64,000 nucleotides of DNA from Escherichia coli. GTDB taxonomy: Bacteria; Pseudomonadota; Gammaproteobacteria; Enterobacterales; Enterobacteriaceae. A program made the translations under genes and the position numbers. Within the stretch, counting starts at the first letter, position 1; each line of letters begins with the position of its first letter. Positions 3,968-60,591 of this stretch are shown in pieces. The notes below the pieces were generated by a model. It had not been told where the DNA came from. It ran no database searches and saw only the letters and a list, made by a program, of their open reading frames with translations. The stretch is taken from assembly GCF_016026235.1 (NCBI RefSeq), contig NZ_CP065613.1; one strand, given 5' to 3'.

Positions 3968-10031
<6,064 letters not shown>

Positions 10032-47724: not shown

Positions 47725-49020
<1,296 letters not shown>

Positions 49021-49022
49021 AA

Positions 49023-49058
49023 CTATCAGCCGGGTCATTATCGCCTGGCTGATTTTTA
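49023..49058 (+). terminator. Candidate terminator downstream of yeaH
   Basis: atcagccgg...cctggctgat inverted repeat followed by ttttag. Confidence 0.45.
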
Positions 49059-49166
49059 GCTCACTGTAAATTATCTCATTTATTACATACATTAGCTTAC
49101 AATCGCTTTAAATATGACAGCATAACCTTTACACAATTTAGTTCCAGAAAACAATCATTCGGAAAA

Positions 49167-50642
49167 ATGATTCAGTCAACACGTATTTCCATGGGGTTAT
49201 TCTTTAAATATTTTTTATCGTTAACGAAAATTGATCCTGGTCAAAACTATATATCTCTGCCATCAATAAAATCCAGCACTCACATTGCTCTCCTTTTTAT
49301 GGTTTCTATGGGTACACAAAAATTAAAAGCTCAAAGCTTTTTTATTTTCAGTTTATTGCTGACGTTAATTTTATTTTGCATTACTACCTTATATAACGAA
49401 AACACAAATGTAAAACTCATCCCACAGATGAATTACCTGATGGTTGTTGTGGCTTTGTTTTTCCTTAACGCCGTCATTTTTCTTTTCATGTTAATGAAAT
49501 ATTTTACTAACAAACAAATTTTACCAACACTCATTTTAAGCCTTGCATTTTTAAGTGGCCTTATCTATTTAGTTGAAACCATTGTAATTATCCATAAACC
49601 AATTAACGGCAGTACACTGATCCAGACAAAGTCGAATGATGTTTCTATTTTCTATATTTTCCGCCAACTCAGTTTTATTTGTTTAACCTCGCTGGCGCTC
49701 TTTTGTTATGGAAAAGACAACATCCTTGACAACAATAAGAAAAAAACTGGCATTCTGTTGCTGGCGCTGATTCCTTTTTTAGTTTTTCCCCTTCTGGCAC
49801 ACAATCTGAGCAGTTATAACGCTGACTATTCTTTGTATGTCGTCGATTACTGTCCGGACAACCATACTGCGACCTGGGGAATCAACTATACAAAAATATT
49901 GGTTTGTCTGTGGGCATTTTTACTGTTCTTTATTATCATGCGTACACGATTAGCCAGCGAACTATGGCCGTTAATAGCATTATTATGTCTGGCATCGCTA
50001 TGCTGCAACTTACTTCTACTGACTCTGGATGAGTATAATTATACCATCTGGTATATCAGTCGCGGGATTGAAGTCTCCAGTAAACTGTTTGTTGTGTCTT
50101 TTCTGATTTATAACATTTTTCAGGAGCTGCAACTCTCCAGCAAACTGGCAGTTCATGATGTGCTGACCAATATTTATAATCGGCGCTACTTTTTCAACAG
50201 CGTAGAGTCATTATTGTCGCGACCTGTTGTTAAGGACTTCTGTGTCATGCTGGTTGATATTAATCAGTTCAAGCGCATCAATGCCCAATGGGGACATCGT
50301 GTGGGTGATAAAGTGCTGGTTTCAATTGTCGATATTATCCAGCAAAGCATCCGCCCCGATGATATTTTAGCGCGACTGGAGGGTGAGGTGTTTGGCTTGC
50401 TATTTACCGAACTCAATAGTGCCCAGGCAAAAATCATTGCGGAACGTATGCGTAAAAATGTCGAACTCCTGACCGGCTTTAGTAACAGATATGATGTTCC
50501 TGAACAAATGACCATCAGTATTGGCACGGTTTTTTCAACGGGTGACACGCGTAATATCTCGCTTGTCATGACGGAAGCAGATAAAGCCTTACGCGAAGCG
50601 AAAAGCGATGGGGGCAACAAAGTGATTATTCATCATATTTAA
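49167..50642 (+). CDS. yeaI: GGDEF-domain membrane protein with degenerate active site
   Basis: 491 aa; N-terminal multi-TM region; GGDEF position reads EGEVF (…ARLEGEVFGLLF…). Confidence 0.85.
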   Translation: MIQSTRISMGLFFKYFLSLTKIDPGQNYISLPSIKSSTHIALLFMVSMGTQKLKAQSFFIFSLLLTLILFCITTLYNENTNVKLIPQMNYLMVVVALFFLNAVIFLFMLMKYFTNKQILPTLILSLAFLSGLIYLVETIVIIHKPINGSTLIQTKSNDVSIFYIFRQLSFICLTSLALFCYGKDNILDNNKKKTGILLLALIPFLVFPLLAHNLSSYNADYSLYVVDYCPDNHTATWGINYTKILVCLWAFLLFFIIMRTRLASELWPLIALLCLASLCCNLLLLTLDEYNYTIWYISRGIEVSSKLFVVSFLIYNIFQELQLSSKLAVHDVLTNIYNRRYFFNSVESLLSRPVVKDFCVMLVDINQFKRINAQWGHRVGDKVLVSIVDIIQQSIRPDDILARLEGEVFGLLFTELNSAQAKIIAERMRKNVELLTGFSNRYDVPEQMTISIGTVFSTGDTRNISLVMTEADKALREAKSDGGNKVIIHHI

Positions 50643-50822
50643 GTGCAAAAATATTCAGAGCCATGCTTTTTGCGTGGCTTTTGCATACAATTTATTACTA
50701 TTACCCCTAAATTTCCCCTCCCCAGCGGCGCAGAGATGAGTATAATTAGCGCCCCTGTGCCAGGCCGCAATCGAACTTTATCTGGTTTTCTCGTTTCACT
50801 AACCGAAGGAGTGCCATTTATC

Positions 50823-52313
50823 ATGAAATTGCACCATAGAATGCTCCGGCATTTTATCGCCGCAAGTGTCATTGTGCTGACATCTTCCTTCCTTATTTTT
50901 GAACTTGTCGCCAGCGACAGAGCAATGAGTGCCTATCTGCGCTATATCGTGCAGAAAGCAGACTCCTCCTTTCTTTATGATAAGTATCAGAATCAGAGTA
51001 TTGCCGCGCATGTGATGCGCGCTCTCGCTGCTGAGCAGTCGGAAGTGTCGCCAGAACAGCGGCGCGCCATCTGCGAGGCTTTTGAGTCTGCCAATAATAC
51101 CCATGGCTTAAACCTGACTGCCCATAAATACCCGGGCTTACGCGGCACACTACAAACCGCATCCACTGACTGCGACACAATTGTGGAAGCTGCAGCACTA
51201 TTACCCGCTTTTGATCAGGCAGTGGAAGGCAACCGCCACCAGGATGATTACGGTTCAGGTCTTGGGATGGCCGAAGAGAAATTTCACTATTATCTCGATC
51301 TCAATGACCGCTATGTCTATTTTTATGAGCCGGTTAATGTTGAATACTTTGCGATGAATAACTGGTCCTTCCTGCAGTCAGGAAGTATTGGCATCGATCG
51401 CAAAGATATTGAAAAGGTATTTACCGGGCGTACCGTATTGTCGAGCATTTACCAGGATCAGCGTACTAAACAGAACGTGATGAGTTTGCTGACGCCGGTG
51501 TATGTTGCAGGGCAGCTAAAAGGGATTGTGCTGCTGGATATTAACAAAAACAATCTGCGGAATATCTTTTACACTCATGACCGCCCTCTCCTCTGGCGTT
51601 TTCTCAATGTCACGCTAACCGATACAGATTCGGGGCGCGACATTATCATCAACCAGAGCGAAGATAATCTGTTCCAGTATGTCAGTTACGTCCATGACTT
51701 ACCGGGCGGCATTCGTGTCTCGTTATCCATTGATATTCTTTACTTTATCACGTCTTCGTGGAAAAGCGTTCTGTTCTGGATTTTGACGGCGTTAATTTTG
51801 CTGAATATGGTGCGGATGCACTTCCGCTTATACCAAAATGTGTCGCGAGAAAATATTAGTGATGCGATGACTGGACTGTATAATCGCAAAATTTTAACCC
51901 CTGAACTGGAGCAGCGGTTGCAGAAACTGGTGCAATCCGGTTCTTCGGTGATGTTTATTGCAATTGACATGGACAAGTTAAAGCTAATAAATGACACCCT
52001 CGGTCATCAGGAAGGGGATTTAGCGATTACGTTGTTAGCTCAGGCGATTAAACAATCGATTCGTAAAAGTGATTATGCCATCCGACTCGGTGGCGATGAA
52101 TTCTGCATCATTCTTGTCGATTCGACGCCGCAAATTGCAGCACAACTGCCTGAACGTATCGAAAAACGTCTGCAACATATCGCGCCGCAGAAAGAGATCG
52201 GCTTCTCTTCCGGTATTTACGCGATGAAAGAAAACGATACGTTACATGATGCGTATAAAGCTTCCGATGAGCGTTTATATGTCAATAAGCAGAACAAAAA
52301 CAGCCGTTCATGA
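50823..52313 (+). CDS. yeaJ: Diguanylate cyclase (sensor domain plus GGDEF)
   Basis: ORF 50643-52313; start at MKLHHRMLRHF gives 496 aa; intact RLGGDEF. Confidence 0.85.
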   Translation: MKLHHRMLRHFIAASVIVLTSSFLIFELVASDRAMSAYLRYIVQKADSSFLYDKYQNQSIAAHVMRALAAEQSEVSPEQRRAICEAFESANNTHGLNLTAHKYPGLRGTLQTASTDCDTIVEAAALLPAFDQAVEGNRHQDDYGSGLGMAEEKFHYYLDLNDRYVYFYEPVNVEYFAMNNWSFLQSGSIGIDRKDIEKVFTGRTVLSSIYQDQRTKQNVMSLLTPVYVAGQLKGIVLLDINKNNLRNIFYTHDRPLLWRFLNVTLTDTDSGRDIIINQSEDNLFQYVSYVHDLPGGIRVSLSIDILYFITSSWKSVLFWILTALILLNMVRMHFRLYQNVSRENISDAMTGLYNRKILTPELEQRLQKLVQSGSSVMFIAIDMDKLKLINDTLGHQEGDLAITLLAQAIKQSIRKSDYAIRLGGDEFCIILVDSTPQIAAQLPERIEKRLQHIAPQKEIGFSSGIYAMKENDTLHDAYKASDERLYVNKQNKNSRS

Positions 52314-52355
52314 TAACCTTCTGTGGTTGTTTGCTTGTAATCTCAGGAGCGTGAA

Positions 52356-52859
52356 ATGACTGAAATGGCTAAAGGAAGCGTGACGCATCAGCGGTTAATC
52401 GCTTTATTATCACAAGAAGGTGCTGATTTCCGCGTCGTTACCCATGAAGCGGTAGGTAAATGTGAAGCGGTGTCAGAAATTCGTGGCACCGCTCTAGGCC
52501 AGGGTGCTAAGGCACTGGTATGTAAAGTCAAAGGCAATGGCGTAAATCAACATGTTCTGGCGATCCTCGCAGCCGATCAACAGGCCGATCTGAGCCAACT
52601 CGCCAGCCATATAGGCGGATTACGCGCTTCGTTGGCCAGCCCGGCGGAAGTCGATGAACTCACAGGCTGTGTCTTCGGCGCGATCCCCCCTTTCAGCTTC
52701 CATCCAAAACTCAAACTGGTTGCCGACCCTCTACTCTTCGAACGATTTGATGAAATCGCCTTCAATGCAGGGATGCTGGATAAATCCGTTATTTTGAAAA
52801 CCGCGGATTATTTGCGCATTGCGCAACCAGAACTGATCAATTTCCGCCGCACAGCGTAA
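52356..52859 (+). CDS. yeaK: YbaK/ProX-like aminoacyl-tRNA deacylase family protein
   Basis: 167-aa ORF. Confidence 0.78.
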   Translation: MTEMAKGSVTHQRLIALLSQEGADFRVVTHEAVGKCEAVSEIRGTALGQGAKALVCKVKGNGVNQHVLAILAADQQADLSQLASHIGGLRASLASPAEVDELTGCVFGAIPPFSFHPKLKLVADPLLFERFDEIAFNAGMLDKSVILKTADYLRIAQPELINFRRTA

Positions 52860-52964
52860 CTAGCCTGTCCGTTCAATAAGCAGAACGGACAAAACCAGCA
52901 CAACCGCAATGGCAAAAAACGATGACGTGATAATCAGTGTCTCGACGAACATTTGATCGTTCAT
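52860..52964 (-). CDS. yoaI: Small hydrophobic protein (34 aa)
   Basis: Minus strand encodes [34 protein letters not shown]. Confidence 0.6.
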
Positions 52965-53133
52965 AGTATGCCCCCGGGAGATAGCTGTTTTCACGTTATT
53001 GTTAGCGTGCACAAATGGCAGTTTGATGACAGTTCGCCTGATTTTTTATGCAAAAAACGTAAAGATTTTCTACTTCCTTCCTGCAGCAAGCGTAAAGTAA
53101 GCAGGCTTATTATTTTTTGGCAAGGAAACCACG

Positions 53134-53580
53134 ATGTTTGATGTCACTTTGCTGATCCTGCTCGGGTTAGCTGCGCTGGGCTTTATCAGTCATAACACCA
53201 CTGTCGCCGTTTCAATTCTGGTGTTGATCATTGTCCGCGTCACACCGTTAAGCACCTTTTTCCCGTGGATTGAAAAACAGGGGCTAAGTATCGGGATAAT
53301 CATTCTGACGATTGGCGTTATGGCCCCCATCGCCAGCGGGACGCTACCGCCCTCAACCTTGATTCACTCGTTTCTGAACTGGAAATCGCTGGTGGCAATT
53401 GCAGTAGGCGTTATTGTCTCCTGGCTGGGTGGGCGCGGCGTGACGTTAATGGGCAGCCAGCCGCAACTGGTTGCTGGGCTGCTGGTGGGCACTGTTTTAG
53501 GCGTAGCGCTGTTTCGCGGCGTACCGGTTGGCCCGCTTATTGCCGCGGGTCTGGTTTCGCTGATTGTGGGGAAACAGTAG
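53134..53580 (+). CDS. yeaL: UPF0756 inner membrane protein
   Basis: 148-aa hydrophobic ORF. Confidence 0.8.
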
Positions 53581-54358
53581 TTAATCCCGCAATATATCGG
53601 CCTGGCGTTTGCCCCAGGCCTTTCTTAAACATAGTAATAAAGGCCGTTGTTGAATCATACCCCAGCGTATGAGCAACTTTCTGTACAGTATCGCCTTTCA
53701 CTAATCCCTGAAGCGCCATAATCAGCTGTAACTGCTGTCGCCACTGGCGAAAACTCAACCCCGTCTCTTTTACTATCAGTCGGGCAAGATTGCGTTCACT
53801 CATCGCAAAAAAGCCAGCCCATTGCCCCAATGACCCCCACTCGACGGGCTCTTTCGCCATCATCTCCACCATCGCGCGGATTTTAGGATGAGAAGAAACG
53901 GGTAGGTGCAGCTGTTGTTGTGGCTGCTGAGGGAGTTCATCAAACAGGACCTGAATTAATCTGCGGGTCATCGGCTCAGCACGCTGAGTCGTCGTCCTGT
54001 TTGCCAGAGTTAAAATTAATTCCCGGCATAAGGGCGATATTTTCAATGTGCAACAGGTTGTCGGCATTGTCACTGCGCTGGGTTCGATAAACAGAAAACA
54101 GAGTTCAGCGTTAGCTGTCACTTGATTGCTATGTTCCACCCCGCCCGGTATCCAAACCGCATATTGCGGCGGCACCATCCACAAAGCATTTTCCACCGTA
54201 CAGGTAATTGCACCATGTAATGCTAGTATCAGCTGTCCTTTGCGGTGCTGATGTACAGGACTGGTTAACTCATCCGTTCCGGCGTGAATACAAAATGCGA
54301 CCGCGGCTTCATGGTGTCGGTCGGGTTCATAGCCATTGAGATTCAACCTGTGCATCAT
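53537..54358 (-). CDS. yeaM: AraC-family transcriptional regulator
   Basis: 273-aa ORF with N-terminal cupin-like region and C-terminal AraC HTH; overlaps yeaL convergently by 44 bp. Confidence 0.82.
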
Positions 54359-54454
54359 TTTGTCCGAATTTAGCGATAATTTGTCATTTTAGCTTGATTC
54401 AACATAACAATAAAAACGGTAAGGTACAGCCTCGTTTGTAACAATGAGAAGCAT

Positions 54455-55636
54455 ATGACCTGTTCAACTTCATTAAGCGGCAAAAACAGGATTGTCCTTA
54501 TCGCTGGCATTCTGATGATTGCCACAACATTACGCGTCACCTTTACCGGCGCAGCGCCGTTACTGGATACGATTCGTTCCGCTTACTCGCTGACGACAGC
54601 GCAAACCGGCTTATTAACCACCCTGCCATTATTGGCCTTTGCGCTAATCTCACCTTTGGCTGCCCCGGTGGCGCGACGTTTTGGTATGGAACGTAGCCTG
54701 TTTGCCGCGTTACTTTTGATCTGTGCAGGTATCGCAATTCGTTCTCTCCCTTCGCCTTACTTATTATTTGGCGGTACAGCGGTCATTGGCGGTGGGATTG
54801 CATTAGGCAATGTCTTACTGCCAGGATTAATTAAACGCGATTTCCCTCATTCCGTCGCCAGACTTACCGGCGCATATTCCCTGACAATGGGAGCTGCAGC
54901 GGCACTGGGATCGGCTATGGTCGTGCCGCTGGCTTTGAACGGTTTTGGCTGGCAAGGCGCGTTGTTCATGCTGATGTGTTTTCCTCTGCTGTCTCTTTTT
55001 TTATGGCTGCCACAGTGGCGAAGCCAACAACATGCAAATTTGAGTACCTCGCGCGCCTTACATACTCGGGGTATCTGGCGTTCGCCGCTTGCCTGGCAGG
55101 TCACATTGTTTCTTGGGATCAACTCACTGGTCTATTACGTGATTATTGGCTGGCTTCCGGCGATCCTCATCAGTCACGGCTATAGCGAAGCACAGGCGGG
55201 TTCACTGCATGGTTTGCTGCAACTAGCCACAGCAGCTCCCGGTTTGCTGATCCCTCTTTTCTTACATCATGTGAAAGATCAGCGTGGTATTGCAGCGTTC
55301 GTTGCCTTGATGTGCGCAGTGGGCGCTGTTGGGCTCTGCTTTATGCCAGCGCACGCGATCACCTGGACTCTGCTTTTCGGTTTTGGTTCCGGCGCAACAA
55401 TGATACTGGGGTTGACGTTCATTGGTCTTCGGGCAAGTTCTGCGCATCAGGCGGCGGCACTCTCGGGGATGGCACAATCCGTCGGGTATTTGCTGGCAGC
55501 CTGTGGGCCGCCGCTGATGGGTAAAATACACGATGCTAACGGTGACTGGTCCGTACCACTGATGGGTGTTGCAATACTTTCACTACTGATGGCGATTTTC
55601 GGACTTTGCGCCGGGAGAGACAAAGAAATTCGCTAA
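54455..55636 (+). CDS. yeaN: MFS transporter
   Basis: 393-aa hydrophobic ORF. Confidence 0.82.
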   Translation: MTCSTSLSGKNRIVLIAGILMIATTLRVTFTGAAPLLDTIRSAYSLTTAQTGLLTTLPLLAFALISPLAAPVARRFGMERSLFAALLLICAGIAIRSLPSPYLLFGGTAVIGGGIALGNVLLPGLIKRDFPHSVARLTGAYSLTMGAAAALGSAMVVPLALNGFGWQGALFMLMCFPLLSLFLWLPQWRSQQHANLSTSRALHTRGIWRSPLAWQVTLFLGINSLVYYVIIGWLPAILISHGYSEAQAGSLHGLLQLATAAPGLLIPLFLHHVKDQRGIAAFVALMCAVGAVGLCFMPAHAITWTLLFGFGSGATMILGLTFIGLRASSAHQAAALSGMAQSVGYLLAACGPPLMGKIHDANGDWSVPLMGVAILSLLMAIFGLCAGRDKEIR

Positions 55637-55690
55637 TATCCGGTGCTATAGTGACGTGACAAATCATGCGTGAAAGGGAGAACAAACACG

Positions 55691-56038
55691 ATGAATATTC
55701 AGTGCAAACGCGTTTATGATCCGGCTGAACAGAGCGATGGTTATCGCGTACTGGTCGACCGCCTCTGGCCGCGCGGTATCAAAAAAACCGATTTAGCCCT
55801 TGATGAGTGGGATAAAGAAATCACGCCGTCAACGGAACTGCGCAAAGCCTTTCACGGCGAAGTCGTCGATTTTGCAACCTTTCGCGAGCAATATCTTGCA
55901 GAACTGGCGCAACACGAGCAAGAAGGAAAGCGGCTGGCGGACATCGCCAAAAAACAGCCGCTGACCCTGCTCTACGCAGCAAAAAACACCACGCAGAACC
56001 ATGCGCTGGTGCTGGCCGACTGGCTACGTAGCTTGTGA
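55691..56038 (+). CDS. yeaO: DUF488 protein
   Basis: ORF 55670-56038; start at MNIQCKRVYD gives 115 aa. Confidence 0.78.
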   Translation: MNIQCKRVYDPAEQSDGYRVLVDRLWPRGIKKTDLALDEWDKEITPSTELRKAFHGEVVDFATFREQYLAELAQHEQEGKRLADIAKKQPLTLLYAAKNTTQNHALVLADWLRSL

Positions 56039-56059
56039 TTTTAGTACAGCATCCGGCGG

Positions 56060-56314
56060 TTATTTTTCACCAGCCGGATGGTCCCGTCGCCACAATGCCC
56101 ATTCATCAATCGTTTCACCGCCCGGTAATTTGCAATTGTTGCTGACCCCTTGCGCTGTCGACACTGGAATGAGCGTCCCGCCCTTCTGCTGGCAATAGAC
56201 CGACGCCGGATTTGCCATACCAATCTGCGGCGGTTTAGGTGCTTCTGGCTGAGAAGAGGTTGAACAACCAGCCAGGACCAGCAAGCAAGGCAAAGCAAAA
56301 CTGATAATTTTCAT
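56060..56314 (-). CDS. yoaF: DUF333 lipoprotein
   Basis: 84-aa ORF with lipobox LAGC. Confidence 0.78.
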   Translation of the reverse strand: MKIISFALPCLLVLAGCSTSSQPEAPKPPQIGMANPASVYCQQKGGTLIPVSTAQGVSNNCKLPGGETIDEWALWRRDHPAGEK

Positions 56315-56496
56315 TTATTGATCTCACTCATTTATCTACGCTTAGAGTATCGCGGTATCGTTTTGTTTTGCAGCACTATTTTTATTACATTCACTCAAAA
56401 CATATTACGTCTTGTTTCATCTTTGTTGGTGATGTTTTATCATGCCTGCAAAGATTAAATAATCAGCATTTACCCGCCGTATCCTGGAGTTGTTTC

Positions 56497-57522
56497 GTGT
56501 CAGATCAGATTATCGCCCGCGTCTCGCAATCCCTTGCCAAAGAACAGTCACTGGAAAGTCTGGTCCGACAGCTTCTGGAGATGCTGGAAATGGTCACTGA
56601 TATGGAATCAACCTACCTGACCAAAGTGGATGTCGAAGCGCGCCTGCAGCATATTATGTTTGCCCGTAACAGCCAGAAAATGCACATCCCGGAGAATTTT
56701 ACCGTCTCGTGGGATTACTCGTTATGCAAACGCGCCATTGATGAAAACTGCTTTTTCAGCGATGAAGTCCCTGACCGTTGGGGCGACTGTATTGCGGCAC
56801 GCAATCTTGGCATCACCACATTTCTGAGCACGCCAATTCACTTACCGGATGGATCATTCTATGGCACGCTTTGCGCCGCCAGCAGTGAGAAGCGCCAGTG
56901 GAGTGAACGCGCGGAACAGGTTTTACAGTTATTCGCCGGACTGATTGCACAATATATTCAAAAAGAGGCGTTGGTTGAACAGCTGCGCGAAGCCAATGCC
57001 GCGCTGATTGCGCAATCGTATACCGACTCGTTAACCGGGCTACCGAATCGGCGGGCGATTTTTGAAAATCTGACAACACTGTTTTCCCTCGCCCAGCATC
57101 TTAACCATAAGATAATGATCGCGTTTATCGATCTGGATAACTTCAAATTAATCAATGATCGTTTTGGTCATAATAGTGGCGATCTGTTTCTCATTCAGGT
57201 TGGCGAGCGCCTTAATACGCTCCAGCAAAATGGCGAAGTTATTGGTCGTCTCGGTGGTGATGAGTTTTTGGTTGTTTCACTAAACAACGAGAATGCGGAT
57301 ATTTCGTCGCTGCGAGAACGTATTCAACAGCAAATACGTGGAGAATATCACTTAGGTGATGTTGATTTGTATTATCCCGGTGCCAGTCTTGGCATAGTAG
57401 AAGTCGATCCTGAAACGACCGATGCAGACAGTGCCCTGCATGCTGCCGATATCGCGATGTATCAGGAGAAAAAACACAAACAGAAAACACCTTTTGTCGC
57501 GCATCCAGCGCTACATTCCTGA
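56497..57522 (+). CDS. yeaP: Diguanylate cyclase (GAF plus GGDEF)
   Basis: GTG start at 56497 (MSDQIIARVSQ) gives 341 aa; intact RLGGDEF. Confidence 0.82.
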   Translation: MSDQIIARVSQSLAKEQSLESLVRQLLEMLEMVTDMESTYLTKVDVEARLQHIMFARNSQKMHIPENFTVSWDYSLCKRAIDENCFFSDEVPDRWGDCIAARNLGITTFLSTPIHLPDGSFYGTLCAASSEKRQWSERAEQVLQLFAGLIAQYIQKEALVEQLREANAALIAQSYTDSLTGLPNRRAIFENLTTLFSLAQHLNHKIMIAFIDLDNFKLINDRFGHNSGDLFLIQVGERLNTLQQNGEVIGRLGGDEFLVVSLNNENADISSLRERIQQQIRGEYHLGDVDLYYPGASLGIVEVDPETTDADSALHAADIAMYQEKKHKQKTPFVAHPALHS

Positions 57523-57554
57523 GGCGTATTCACATCCTTTTGATTGGTGATAAC

Positions 57555-57653
57555 ATGCGAATCGGTATTATTTTTCCGGTTGTAATCTTCATTACAGCGG
57601 TCGTATTTTTAGCATGGTTTTTTATTGGCGGCTATGCTGCCCCGGGAGCATAA
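57555..57653 (+). CDS. yoaK: Small membrane protein (32 aa)
   Basis: Encodes MRIGIIFPVVIFITAVVFLAWFFIGGYAAPGA; stop 2 bp before yoaJ. Confidence 0.6.
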   Translation: MRIGIIFPVVIFITAVVFLAWFFIGGYAAPGA

Positions 57654-57655
57654 AG

Positions 57656-57730
57656 ATGAAAAAAACAACGATTATTATGATGGGTGTGGCGATTATTGTC
57701 GTACTCGGCACTGAGCTGGGATGGTGGTAA
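57656..57730 (+). CDS. yoaJ: Small membrane protein (24 aa)
   Basis: Encodes MKKTTIIMMGVAIIVVLGTELGWW. Confidence 0.6.
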   Translation: MKKTTIIMMGVAIIVVLGTELGWW

Positions 57731-57788
57731 CGTCACCTCTAAAAAATAGCAAAGGCTGCCTGTGTGCAGCCTTTGTGCAATTTAAGCG

Positions 57789-58037
57789 TTAACTTTTAAT
57801 CTTCCTGTAGATAAATAGCACGACAATCGCACCAATAACGGCAACCACGAAGCTGCCAAAATTGAAGCCATCGACTTTACCAAAGCCAAACAGCGTGCTG
57901 ATCCAACCGCCGACTACGGCACCGACTATCCCCAGCAGGATAGTCATAAAGAATCCACCACCATCTTTACCTGGCATGATCCACTTCGCCAGAATACCGG
58001 CAATAAGCCCAAAAATAATCCATGACAGAATGCCCAT
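57789..58037 (-). CDS. yeaQ: GlsB/YeaQ/YmgE-family small membrane protein
   Basis: 82-aa ORF with glycine-rich TM helices. Confidence 0.85.
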   Translation of the reverse strand: MGILSWIIFGLIAGILAKWIMPGKDGGGFFMTILLGIVGAVVGGWISTLFGFGKVDGFNFGSFVVAVIGAIVVLFIYRKIKS

Positions 58038-58184
58038 TGTTTCCTCACTTATCTGTTTTGCATTAGCGGGTTAGTCGCTGATAAAAAGCATAGCACAACA
58101 TCGGGAGGGCAAGATTTGTGACGAGCATCACGGAGGATTTTTTTGCGATGGCGCAGAAATTACGCCATCAACGATCAGTGATAA

Positions 58185-58367
58185 TTACCAACCACAAACA
58201 TCATGTTCGTTTTCCGTGTCATAAGAACGCACGGTATTCACCAGATCTTTTATCACTTCAGCCGCCACTTCTGGCACCAGCAAAGTCATCGGCGTCTCTG
58301 TTTCATAATCGACAGAAACGCCATTGCTGTTATTGGTGACGGTCACGGTATACGTTGCTTTACCCAT
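58185..58367 (-). CDS. yoaG: DUF1869 small protein
   Basis: 60-aa ORF MGKATYTVTVTNNSNGVSVDYETETPM... Confidence 0.7.
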   Translation of the reverse strand: MGKATYTVTVTNNSNGVSVDYETETPMTLLVPEVAAEVIKDLVNTVRSYDTENEHDVCGW

Positions 58368-58370
58368 GAT

Positions 58371-58730
58371 TCATTTCCCGTTATGAATGACTTTCCGTTG
58401 TTGCGCACCTTCCATCAGGACTTCAGGAGCCACGAAGAAGTCAATGTTGAAATAAGTATCGTCAGTCATGGCTTCAATGTTGTGCCACTTTTCTGGAGGG
58501 AACACCGCAAACTGCCCCGCTTCGATAAGGATCACCTGATCAGGCTCTGCACTGTGTTCATCAGCGTAGCCGAGATATTTGACCGCCCCATGCATAACGG
58601 AAAGGCGTGGGTAAACCCCCGGGCGCGTTCCTTTATCAAGATGACGTTCGAATATTCCGGCAGGCGCAGTTTGTTTATTCCAGAAAGGTGTTGAGCGCGT
58701 ATGAATATAATTCTGTGGGATTTGCAGCAT
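58371..58730 (-). CDS. yeaR: DUF1971 protein
   Basis: 119-aa ORF immediately upstream of yoaG (3-bp gap). Confidence 0.78.
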   Translation of the reverse strand: MLQIPQNYIHTRSTPFWNKQTAPAGIFERHLDKGTRPGVYPRLSVMHGAVKYLGYADEHSAEPDQVILIEAGQFAVFPPEKWHNIEAMTDDTYFNIDFFVAPEVLMEGAQQRKVIHNGK

Positions 58731-58902
58731 CCTTTTCCCTCCTTCGGTGAATGCGCTGAAAACGGTTTATTCCAGCCGTTTCAGGGTACGCCTGATAATT
58801 TGCATTTTAAATACCATTTATTGGTTACTTTTTAGCACCATATCAGAGAAGAATCAGGGAGGATTATAGATGGGAAGCCCGCGACAACGCGGGCTGAAAG
58901 CA

Positions 58903-59610
<708 letters not shown>

Positions 59611-59667
59611 TTAGAAAGGTGAAAATCAGGTTTTAATCTGATATCAACCCGATAATTGAATCATGAA

Positions 59668-60591
59668 TCAGGCATGTTCCAGTGAAAAATTCGGGTAGTG
59701 CTCGGCAAAATACTGGCGTAAAAATTCTACCGTTATCCGCACTTTCGCTGACGTCGCCAGCCTTGAAACATAAACGGCCCAGACGTTCGCTGGCTGGTAA
59801 TATTCCGGTAGCACTTGCACTAAATGACCACTGGCAATGTTTTCGCTAACATCCCACCAGGAACGCAGAGCAATCCCCTGCCCATCGAGACACCACTGAT
59901 GGACAATTTCTCCATGATTAGACGACAGTGGGCCGGTGACTTTAATCGCATGGTGGCCTTCTTTATTGCGTAATTGCCAGACACCAAAAGGATGATCGCG
60001 CTCTTTAATGACCAGGCACGGCAATGCAGAAAGATCGGTTAAATGTTTCGGCGCGCCATGTTGCGCAATAAATTCCGGCGACGCGCAGAGAATGCGGTAA
60101 TTGGTCGCCAGTTTGCGGGCGATTAAATTAGGGGCAATGTCATCGCCAATGCGAATATCGAGATCGACACCTTCATTGACCAAATCGACCAGCCGGTCTT
60201 CCACATCAAAACGTAATTCCAGTTGCGGATACGCCTTCGCCAGCGCTGATAACGCCGGAGCCACCACCTGTCGTCCAAAACCAAAGCTGCTGATAATACG
60301 CAGCATCCCCTGTGGCACCTGACGCACGTCAGAAAGTTCGTCCATCATCTGACCGACATCCTGCAAAATCCGCTGCGCCCATTCATAAATCCGCTCTCCT
60401 TCTTCGGTAATGGTGACGCGGCGGGTGGTGCGGTGTAACAACACCACGTTTAGCGTTTGCTCCAGCAAGGCGATGCGCTTGCTGACGAACGCCGGTGAAA
60501 CGCCCAGTTCTTCCGCCACGGCGGCAAAACCAGCCCGGCGAGCCACCAGCATAAAGACGCGCAAATCATTCAGCAGCGGTAAATTATTCAT
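59668..60591 (-). CDS. dmlR: LysR-family transcriptional regulator of dmlA
   Basis: ORF 59668-60612; start at MNNLPLLNDLRVF gives 307 aa; divergent from dmlA. Confidence 0.82.
   Translation of the reverse strand: MNNLPLLNDLRVFMLVARRAGFAAVAEELGVSPAFVSKRIALLEQTLNVVLLHRTTRRVTITEEGERIYEWAQRILQDVGQMMDELSDVRQVPQGMLRIISSFGFGRQVVAPALSALAKAYPQLELRFDVEDRLVDLVNEGVDLDIRIGDDIAPNLIARKLATNYRILCASPEFIAQHGAPKHLTDLSALPCLVIKERDHPFGVWQLRNKEGHHAIKVTGPLSSNHGEIVHQWCLDGQGIALRSWWDVSENIASGHLVQVLPEYYQPANVWAVYVSRLATSAKVRITVEFLRQYFAEHYPNFSLEHA

What the first reader, a model, noticed from the sequence alone, without database searches (positions are those of the whole stretch)
52860..57730. Small hydrophobic proteins yoaI, yoaK and yoaJ
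Three very short ORFs of 34, 32 and 24 codons encode single-helix hydrophobic peptides. yoaK and yoaJ are separated by 2 bp directly downstream of yeaP, and yoaI abuts the yeaK stop on the opposite strand. Such peptides are easily missed by ORF callers (none is in the supplied track) and often modulate membrane proteins.
Basis: partly seen in the sequence, partly recalled or inferred. Interest (0 to 1): 0.3.

Follow-up and report, generated by a model that had tools for sequence, protein, structure and literature searches.

The report
Known small membrane proteins YoaI, YoaK, YoaJ

Summary
The window is E. coli chromosome. RefSeq annotates all three, and each passes its NCBIfam equivalog cut-off.

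They are not chance ORFs. In loci from Escherichia, Citrobacter, Enterobacter, Lelliottia, Pseudenterobacter, Kosakonia and Salmonella the frames, lengths and start sites persist. dN/dS is 0.03 (yoaK), 0.16 (yoaJ) and 0.18 (yoaI), against 1.4-4.5 in the shifted frames. Two other hydrophobic short ORFs in the window, used as controls, are broken by stops within the genus.

yoaI carries the published PhoB box upstream, conserved in all 21 loci. It also keeps S26, V27 and E31; published work shows YoaI binds and activates EnvZ through E31.

yoaK and yoaJ form a tightly coupled pair. The gap is 0-2 bp and the yoaJ ribosome-binding site lies inside the last yoaK codons. They follow dgcP in E. coli but stand alone in Salmonella. 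Both products have been detected and both are cleaved by purified RseP in vitro; YoaJ was shown to be membrane-integral. Their function is unknown.

Verdict: already known, low interest.

The parts
52860..52964 (-). yoaI, a 34-aa small inner-membrane protein (N-terminal acidic head, one TM helix, C-terminal ERTG tail)
   Evidence: RefSeq CDS WP_000999630.1. NCBIfam NF041475 scores 79.8 bits against a cut-off of 45. The ORF of 32-34 aa is kept in 21 loci from 5 genera, with dN/dS 0.18. S26, V27 and E31 are present (one search compared).
52971..52975 (-). Shine-Dalgarno-like GGGGG, 6 nt upstream of the yoaI ATG
   Evidence: Sequence. Duplex with the 16S 3' end is -8.6 kcal/mol, which is within the best 5% of all ATGs in the window. 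A G-rich block is kept at this position in the other genera.
53014..53031 (-). PhoB box TGTCATCAAACTGCCATT of the yoaI promoter; a -10-like TAACAAT follows at 52998-53004
   Evidence: Identical to the PhoB ChIP-seq site listed for yoaI/yeaL in PMC10294691. The CTGTCAT-N-TGTCAT repeat is conserved in all 21 aligned loci. The -10 assignment is inferred from spacing only.
57546..57551 (+). Shine-Dalgarno-like GGTGAT, 3 nt upstream of the yoaK ATG
   Evidence: Sequence. Complementary to AUCACC of the 16S 3' end, -8.1 kcal/mol. A GGTGA/GGTGG/GGGGA block is kept in nearly all of the 24 loci; one has GGTAA.
57555..57653 (+). yoaK, a 32-aa small membrane protein
   Evidence: RefSeq CDS WP_001219350.1. 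NCBIfam NF033821 scores 69.1 bits against a cut-off of 32. It is exactly 32 aa with an ATG start in 24 loci plus Salmonella, with dN/dS 0.03. About 25 representatives at 50% identity exist among 1.84 billion proteins. All are short, and none is fused to a larger domain.
57644..57648 (+). Shine-Dalgarno GGGAG for yoaJ, embedded in yoaK codons P30-G31-A32
   Evidence: Sequence. Duplex energy -6.6 kcal/mol. The G31 codon is GGA or GGG in 24 of 25 distinct sequences, whereas G25 and G26 are GGC or GGT in 49 of 50.
57656..57730 (+). yoaJ, a 24-aa small membrane protein (MKKTT head, one TM helix, C-terminal GWW)
   Evidence: RefSeq CDS WP_001386836.1. NCBIfam NF011343 scores 60.4 bits against a cut-off of 54. 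It is 24 aa in 25 loci and 25 aa in Kosakonia, and 24 aa in Salmonella, with dN/dS 0.16. Nin-Cout topology is reported in the literature (PMC4597795 citing Fontaine et al. 2011).
57750..57776 (.). G+C-rich hairpin between the convergent yoaJ and yeaQ; probable bidirectional terminator
   Evidence: Terminator-like site on the minus strand with a T-run. An 11-bp stem also forms on the plus strand, z = -2.7 against shuffles. The plus-strand tail is T-poor, so termination of the yoaJ transcript here is inferred.

Best explanation
The interval contains two separate loci of genuine, already catalogued E. coli small inner-membrane protein genes.

(1) yoaI is a monocistronic gene convergent with yeaK. 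It is driven by a PhoB-dependent promoter whose Pho box replaces the -35 element. Its 34-aa product inserts with its C-terminal tail in the cytoplasm. According to published experiments it binds the sensor kinase EnvZ through Glu31 and raises EnvZ-OmpR output. This links phosphate and magnesium limitation to the osmotic and envelope response.

(2) yoaK (32 aa) and yoaJ (24 aa) form a translationally coupled two-gene module. In E. coli it is transcribed as the tail of the dgcP(yeaP)-yoaK-yoaJ operon. Ribosomes finishing yoaK are delivered 0-2 nt from the yoaJ start, and the yoaJ Shine-Dalgarno sequence lies in the last yoaK codons. Each product is predicted to be a single-pass membrane peptide, and YoaJ is reported to be Nin-Cout. 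Each is cleaved by purified RseP in vitro, and YoaJ also binds RseP.

Shown here: the existence, coordinates, conservation and purifying selection of all three frames, the conserved Pho box, and the conserved coupling geometry.
Taken from the literature: expression, YoaJ membrane association and topology, the EnvZ interaction, and RseP cleavage.
Inferred: that YoaK and YoaJ act, probably together, as accessory or regulatory subunits of a membrane protein yet to be identified.
For: Identity and annotation:
- 5420 of 5426 complete E. coli genomes match the region, and one matches at 100%.
- RefSeq annotates yoaI, yoaK and yoaJ at the same coordinates.
- All three exceed their NCBIfam equivalog cut-offs.
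- The exact sequences are in the protein collection under the names YoaI, YoaK and YoaJ.

Conservation:
- tblastn and ORF extraction in 26 loci found through DgcP, plus Salmonella, show preserved frames, lengths and starts.
- Pooled Nei-Gojobori dN/dS is 0.03, 0.16 and 0.18 in frame, against 1.4-4.5 out of frame. Variable columns are concentrated at third codon positions.
- Control hydrophobic ORFs at 57155-57283 and 48985-49092 carry stops in congeners.

Regulation:
- The window has the exact published PhoB site, and it is conserved in all 21 loci.
- yoaI RNA is 12,266 in wild type against 28 in a phoB deletion.

Function of YoaI:
- Bacterial two-hybrid interaction with EnvZ, omrB/ompC/ompF reporters, and loss of function in E31A and E31Q. 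E31, S26 and V27 are present here.

yoaK-yoaJ:
- The operon yeaP-yoaK-yoaJ is seen in RNA-seq.
- The gap is 2 bp or 0 bp in every locus that has both genes.
- The G31 codon is restricted to GGR.
- Tagged YoaK has been detected.
- YoaJ is Nin-Cout, is membrane-integral and co-precipitates with RseP.
- Both are class II RseP substrates.
Against: Nothing argues against the genes being real. The limits are these:
- No function or partner is known for YoaK or YoaJ, so their proposed mechanism is inference.
- yoaJ occurs without yoaK in Kosakonia and in Enterobacter sp. EA-1, with its own GAGGAG or GAAGGAG Shine-Dalgarno sequence. The two are therefore not obligatorily paired.
- The link to dgcP is not universal, because Salmonella has yoaK-yoaJ without dgcP.
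- RseP cleavage results differed between tags and were negative with chromosomal RseP levels.
- The yoaI leader shows no significant or conserved secondary structure that would explain its reported post-transcriptional induction at low Mg2+.
Confidence: 0.95

Rival explanations
1. The three frames are chance short ORFs in intergenic DNA that happen to be hydrophobic, and they are not translated.
For: Short ORFs are very common: 120 ORFs of at least 20 aa overlap 6.5 kb. Two other hydrophobic short ORFs exist in the window.
Against: Frame, length and start are kept across 5-7 genera. dN/dS is 0.03-0.18 in frame but above 1 in the shifted frames. The control ORFs decay within the genus. All three pass their curated equivalog models. 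Tagged proteins or initiation peaks have been published.
Confidence: 0.01
2. yoaK is only a leader or upstream ORF. On this view the act of translating it controls yoaJ expression, and the YoaK peptide has no function of its own.
For: The spacing is 0-2 bp and the yoaJ Shine-Dalgarno sequence lies inside the yoaK 3' codons. yoaJ can exist alone with its own strong Shine-Dalgarno sequence.
Against: YoaK is the most constrained of the three at the amino-acid level along its whole length (dN/dS 0.03; 30 of 32 third positions vary against 8-11 first or second positions). It is more conserved than YoaJ. A family of about 25 representatives at 50% identity keeps the core motif FP-x-x-IFI-x-AV-x-FL-x-WF-x-x-GGYA. 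Tagged YoaK accumulates in cells.
Confidence: 0.04
3. YoaK and/or YoaJ are type I toxin-like membrane-damaging peptides (Hok/Ldr/Ibs/Sho-like) that are kept in check by an antisense RNA or by RseP degradation.
For: They are small, very hydrophobic single-helix peptides. RseP, which detoxifies HokB, cleaves both in vitro.
Against: No Rfam antitoxin or sRNA family is found in 50000-60000. The locus is single-copy, syntenic and vertically conserved between yoaF/dgcP and yeaQ across genera. The genes are co-transcribed with a housekeeping-type diguanylate cyclase gene. YoaJ has been over-produced as a fusion tag without reported toxicity. Neither was reported as toxic in the RseP study, where they fall in the weaker class II.
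Confidence: 0.03

Closest known systems
YoaI of E. coli K-12 (NCBIfam NF041475; Vellappan et al., Sci Signal 2025 / bioRxiv 10.1101/2024.09.13.612970)
   Same: Same 34-aa sequence (looked up by exact match under the UniRef name YOAI_ECOLI). Same Pho box. Same neighbours, yeaK and yeaL. Same conserved S26, V27 and E31.
   Different: Nothing differs; it is the same gene. Some genomes annotate a 50-aa GTG-start form (P0003 and P0012). That start lies 2 nt downstream of the Pho box, upstream of the likely -10, so it is probably an over-extension.
YoaK family small membrane protein (NCBIfam NF033821; a Pfam PF28021 entry is listed in the contig annotation)
   Same: Full-length 32/32 match at 69.1 bits. 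Identical to the E. coli entry. Located upstream of yoaJ, as in other Enterobacteriaceae.
   Different: None. Function is still unknown. The Pfam copy available to the tool did not yet hold the family.
Protein YoaJ of E. coli (NCBIfam NF011343), not Bacillus subtilis YoaJ/EXLX1 expansin
   Same: 24/24 match at 60.4 bits. Identical sequence under the UniRef name YOAJ_ECOLI.
   Different: None. Many literature hits for 'YoaJ' concern the unrelated B. subtilis expansin.
MzrA and MgrB (small membrane regulators of the sensor kinases EnvZ and PhoQ)
   Same: YoaI works like them: a small inner-membrane protein that binds a histidine kinase and changes its output.
   Different: There is no evidence of sequence relationship. 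MzrA is 127 aa and MgrB inhibits rather than activates. YoaI acts through a cytoplasmic Glu.

Membership tests
YoaI (NF041475 equivalog) | Full-length HMM match above the curated cut-off (45 bits) | tested here: met
   79.8 bits, E = 1.1e-22, residues 1-34 against profile positions 1-34
YoaI (NF041475 equivalog) | Invariant Ser26, Val27 and Glu31 reported for 57 orthologues | tested here: met
   All three are present in the window protein and in all 21 orthologues extracted here.
YoaI (NF041475 equivalog) | PhoB box upstream (pho regulon member) | tested here: met
   The exact 18-mer TGTCATCAAACTGCCATT lies at 53014-53031 (-). It is conserved in all 21 loci.
YoaI (NF041475 equivalog) | Membrane localisation and binding or activation of EnvZ | not testable with these tools
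   Taken from the literature for the identical K-12 protein
YoaK family (NF033821 equivalog) | Full-length HMM match above the curated cut-off (32 bits) | tested here: met
   69.1 bits, E = 1.8e-19, residues 1-32 of 32
YoaK family (NF033821 equivalog) | A single hydrophobic helix, and a conserved coding frame under purifying selection | tested here: met
   Highest hydropathy of all short ORFs in the window, 2.98. dN/dS 0.03 over 23 distinct orthologous sequences.
YoaK family (NF033821 equivalog) | The protein is actually made | not testable with these tools
   Literature: chromosomally tagged YoaK was detected by immunoblot
YoaJ (NF011343 equivalog) | Full-length HMM match above the curated cut-off (54 bits) | tested here: met
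   60.4 bits, E = 1.1e-16, residues 1-24 of 24
YoaJ (NF011343 equivalog) | Basic N-terminus, one TM helix, C-terminal GWW, and a frame under purifying selection | tested here: met
   The pattern M[KR]K[TS]T...G[WC]W is kept in all 26 loci that carry yoaJ and in Salmonella. dN/dS 0.16.
YoaJ (NF011343 equivalog) | Nin-Cout membrane topology | not testable with these tools
   Literature (PMC4597795 citing Fontaine et al. 2011; PMC7558204). The positive-inside rule agrees, because the MKKTT head is basic.
Type I toxin peptides (Hok/Ldr/Ibs/Sho-like), considered and rejected | An associated antisense or antitoxin RNA | tested here: not met
   No Rfam family reached E = 1 or better apart from a chance JUMPstart hit elsewhere

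The most novel reading that the evidence does not exclude
YoaK and YoaJ may be made in fixed stoichiometry by obligatory translational coupling and work as a two-peptide membrane unit. In Escherichia, Citrobacter and Enterobacter this unit has been placed under the dgcP promoter, which would tie an unknown membrane process to c-di-GMP or stationary-phase signalling.

The evidence does not exclude this. The spacing is 0-2 bp, the Shine-Dalgarno sequence is embedded in GGR-constrained yoaK codons, and the operon is seen by RNA-seq. It is weakened by yoaJ occurring alone in Kosakonia and by the pair occurring without dgcP in Salmonella.
Probability: 0.15. Interest if true: 0.3.

Novelty: already known. 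Interest (0 to 1): 0.07.

Why it matters
For the genome scan it matters mainly as a calibration point. A sequence-only reader recovered three genes of 24-34 codons correctly, and they prove to be real. They are, however, textbook members of the E. coli small proteome, so nothing new is learned about the locus.

The biology is of moderate general interest. YoaI is a published example of a small protein that cross-wires two-component systems (PhoR-PhoB to EnvZ-OmpR). YoaK and YoaJ remain without a known function despite very strong purifying selection, with dN/dS of 0.03 for YoaK.

Tried and rejected
Searches that could not run or added little:
I replaced it with an exact cluster look-up, a DgcP-anchored genome scan and one exhaustive phmmer search for YoaK.
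- Pfam, in the tool's copy, has no family for any of the three.
- Rfam found no RNA family in 50000-60000.

Structure in the yoaI transcript:
- I looked for a leader structure that could explain the reported post-transcriptional induction at low Mg2+. Folding was no better than shuffles (z = +0.8). The leader is not conserved beyond Escherichia apart from the Shine-Dalgarno sequence.
- I looked for a terminator downstream of yoaI inside the yeaK 3' end. No significant structure was found, and no terminator-like site on that strand.

Other candidates rejected:
- The only sigma-70-like site near yoaK (57529-57556) overlaps its ATG, so it cannot serve yoaK.
- Two further hydrophobic short ORFs (57155-57283 +, inside dgcP out of frame; 48985-49092 -) were tested as possible extra small proteins. 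They were rejected because stops interrupt them in other Escherichia species.
- The 38-aa upstream-ATG form of yoaJ (57614-57730) was rejected. In genera with a 0-bp gap, the yoaK stop lies in frame directly before the yoaJ start.

Papers not available: Hemm et al. 2008 and 2010, Fontaine et al. 2011 and the EcoSal small-proteome review are not held in the library. Their results are cited only through papers that quote them.


Full report
**1. What the sequence is**

The stretch 52000-58500 matches 5420 of 5426 complete E. coli genomes, at 95-100% identity in all but one, and is 100% identical to strain EC2641. The RefSeq annotation of that strain gives the following gene order (window coordinate = locus coordinate + 50499):
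- dgcJ
- yeaK
- yoaI (-)
- yeaL
- nimR (-)
- nimT
- yeaO
- yoaF (-)
- dgcP (= yeaP)
- yoaK
- yoaJ
- yeaQ (-)
- yoaG (-)
- yeaR (-)

The three small genes are therefore annotated genes of a well-studied chromosome.

**2. Check of the observation**

Direct translation and the raw sequence confirm every statement.
- yoaI lies at 52860-52964 on the minus strand and encodes 34 aa. Its stop codon starts at the base after the last base of the yeaK stop (52859).
- yoaK lies at 57555-57653 and encodes 32 aa. It starts 32 bp after the dgcP stop (57520-57522).
- yoaJ lies at 57656-57730 and encodes 24 aa, 2 bp after the yoaK stop.

Short ORFs as such are abundant: 120 of at least 20 aa overlap this 6.5 kb. 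Hydrophobicity sets these apart. Among 364 ATG-ORFs of 20-50 aa in the 64-kb window, only four have a 17-residue segment with mean Kyte-Doolittle hydropathy of at least 2.4. YoaK (2.98) and YoaI (2.81) are the top two, and YoaJ scores 2.26.

Shine-Dalgarno-like elements precede each start:
- yoaI: GGGGG at 52971-52975, -8.6 kcal/mol with the 16S 3' end.
- yoaK: GGTGAT at 57546-57551, -8.1 kcal/mol.
- yoaJ: GGGAG at 57644-57648, -6.6 kcal/mol.

**3. Are they real genes?**

A scan of one genome per species with DgcP as anchor returned 26 loci. They come from several Escherichia species, Citrobacter, Enterobacter, Lelliottia, Pseudenterobacter, Kosakonia and a Symbiopectobacterium.
- tblastn and ORF extraction show yoaK as an ATG-initiated ORF of exactly 32 codons in 24 of them.
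- yoaJ is an ORF of 24 codons in 25 of them and 25 codons in Kosakonia.
- yoaI is an ORF of 32-34 codons in 21 of them.

Pooled Nei-Gojobori estimates against the window sequence give dN/dS of 0.03 for yoaK, 0.16 for yoaJ and 0.18 for yoaI. The same DNA read in the two shifted frames gives 1.4-4.5. Variable columns are concentrated at third codon positions: 11/8/30 for yoaK, 14/10/21 for yoaJ and 22/11/31 for yoaI.

As a negative control, I tested the two other hydrophobic short ORFs of the window (57155-57283 +, and 48985-49092 -). Both acquire stop codons in other Escherichia species.

All three proteins exceed the curated cut-offs of their NCBIfam equivalog models (79.8/45, 69.1/32 and 60.4/54 bits). 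Their exact sequences are in the public collection under the names YoaI, YoaK and YoaJ.

**4. yoaI**

The window carries the 18-mer TGTCATCAAACTGCCATT at 53014-53031 on the yoaI strand. This is the PhoB ChIP-seq site reported for yoaI/yeaL. In the same study yoaI RNA fell from 12,266 to 28 in a phoB deletion (PMC10294691). In my alignment of 21 upstream regions this direct repeat (CTGTCAT-N-TGTCAT) is conserved in every genus, followed at fixed distance by a -10-like TAACAAT, TATCAAT or TAAAAA.

Vellappan et al. report the following (10.1101/2024.09.13.612970; published in Sci Signal 2025):
- Ribo-RET initiation signal and a YoaI-SPA signal in membrane fractions.
- PhoB-dependent transcription.
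- A PhoQ-independent, post-transcriptional rise at low Mg2+.
- A two-hybrid interaction with EnvZ.
- Reduced omrB reporter activity in a yoaI deletion and a more than 7-fold increase on overexpression.
- Loss of both the interaction and the activation in E31A and E31Q.

The residues they find invariant (S26, V27, E31) are present in the window protein and in all 21 orthologues I extracted.

I looked for a leader structure that could explain the post-transcriptional control. I found none that is significant (z = +0.8) or conserved.

Some genomes annotate a 50-aa form from a GTG at 53012. That codon lies 2 nt after the Pho box and upstream of the likely -10. Citrobacter also has a 7-nt insertion in the leader relative to Escherichia. 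The 34-aa form is therefore the conserved product; the part of this argument that rests on the transcript start is inferred.

**5. yoaK-yoaJ**

The two genes are separated by 2 bp in Escherichia, Citrobacter and Salmonella, and by 0 bp in Enterobacter, Lelliottia and Pseudenterobacter.

The yoaJ Shine-Dalgarno sequence lies in the YoaK codons P30-G31-A32. The G31 codon is GGA or GGG in 24 of 25 distinct sequences, whereas the G25 and G26 codons are GGC or GGT in 49 of 50. This is the signature expected if the third position is held by the ribosome-binding site. Translational coupling is thus strongly suggested, but it is inferred.

RNA-seq-based operon calls list yeaP-yoaK-yoaJ as one unit (PMC4620388). 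The 32-bp dgcP-yoaK spacer holds no usable promoter.

The link to dgcP is not ancestral or obligatory. In Salmonella dgcP is absent, and yoaK (L028 4001-4099) and yoaJ (4102-4176, MRKTTMMLMGIALIAVLGTELGWW) stand alone between yoaF and yeaQ, behind a 196-bp spacer. In Kosakonia cowanii and Enterobacter sp. EA-1, yoaJ follows the dgcP homologue alone with its own strong Shine-Dalgarno sequence and no yoaK. In Symbiopectobacterium both are missing.

An exhaustive phmmer search of 1.84 billion representatives found only 25 YoaK relatives. All are short. The longer ones look like start-site over-extensions or read-through and frameshift products, including one 57-aa YoaK-YoaJ fusion. None carries another domain.

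A hairpin at 57750-57776 between yoaJ and the convergent yeaQ is a clear terminator for yeaQ and a plausible one for yoaJ.

From the literature:
- Tagged YoaK is detected.
- YoaJ is integral to the membrane with Nin-Cout topology and co-precipitates with the S2P protease RseP.
- Both are class II RseP substrates. They are cleaved by purified enzyme, but in vivo results are inconsistent.
- YoaJ is reported to rise in diamide-treated cells.
- YoaJ has been used as a periplasm-directing fusion tag.
- No function is known.

**6. Mechanism and rivals**

The best-supported account is as follows. YoaI is a PhoB-induced single-pass peptide that activates EnvZ through its cytoplasmic Glu31; this has been shown experimentally by others for the identical protein. 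YoaK and YoaJ are a coupled pair of single-pass peptides. They most likely act as accessory or regulatory subunits of an unidentified membrane protein, with turnover that may involve RseP; this is inference.

I rejected three rivals:
- Chance ORFs, rejected on the conservation analysis and the control ORFs.
- yoaK as a functionless leader ORF, rejected because its peptide is the most constrained of the three.
- Type I toxins, rejected because there is no antitoxin RNA, the locus is single-copy and syntenic, and no toxicity has been reported.

**7. Novelty and verdict**

I class the finding as already known and of low interest.

Noticed in passing
window 53014-53031 (-), and L002-L026 upstream of yoaI: The PhoB box of yoaI is conserved as a CTGTCAT-N-TGTCAT direct repeat in all 21 loci from five genera, with a -10-like element at fixed distance. 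The rest of the leader is not conserved.
   Followed up: yes
window 52860-53012 (-): A 50-aa GTG-start version of yoaI is annotated in some E. coli genomes (P0003, P0012). Its start lies 2 nt after the Pho box, so it is probably outside the PhoB-dependent transcript and an annotation over-extension.
   Followed up: partly
window 52740-52870, both strands: yeaK and yoaI converge with 0 bp between their stops, and no terminator-like hairpin was found downstream of yoaI. A yoaI transcript induced several-hundred-fold by PhoB would therefore run antisense into the yeaK 3' end. Possible interference was not examined.
   Followed up: partly
L028 3805-4237 (Salmonella enterica): Salmonella lacks dgcP. 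yoaK and yoaJ sit alone behind a 196-bp spacer after yoaF, so the pair must have its own promoter there. The contig annotation lists a Pfam family PF28021:YoaK that is absent from the Pfam copy searched.
   Followed up: partly
L023 11129-11206 (Kosakonia cowanii); L027 11093-11167 (Enterobacter sp. EA-1): yoaJ is present without yoaK, preceded by its own strong Shine-Dalgarno sequence (GAGGAG or GAAGGAG). The Kosakonia product has one extra C-terminal residue (GWWQ).
   Followed up: yes
protein P0033 (57 aa), from the representative library: This is an in-frame YoaK-YoaJ fusion (MRIG...AAPEHKDEKTTIIMMGVAIIVVLGTELGWW). It is presumably an indel variant or a sequencing error in some E. coli assembly. 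P0032, P0034 and P0054 look like frameshift read-through products of the same junction.
   Followed up: no
window 57155-57283 (+) and 48985-49092 (-): Two further hydrophobic short ORFs of 42 and 35 aa. The first lies out of frame inside dgcP. Both are interrupted by stop codons in other Escherichia species, so they are chance ORFs.
   Followed up: yes
window 57750-57776: An 11-bp G+C-rich hairpin lies between the convergent yoaJ and yeaQ (z = -2.7). It has a T-run on the yeaQ side only, so it is a likely shared terminator.
   Followed up: partly
window 52000-58500 compared with NZ_CP065615.1, NZ_CP077646.1 and NZ_CP077649.1: In a few E. coli strains the match to this region is split in two pieces by an insertion: an IS66-family element in one strain and an InsQ/TnpB-family element in two. 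The insertion points were not mapped.
   Followed up: no
window 53537-53580: The annotated 3' ends of the convergent yeaL (+) and nimR (-) overlap by 44 bp.
   Followed up: no
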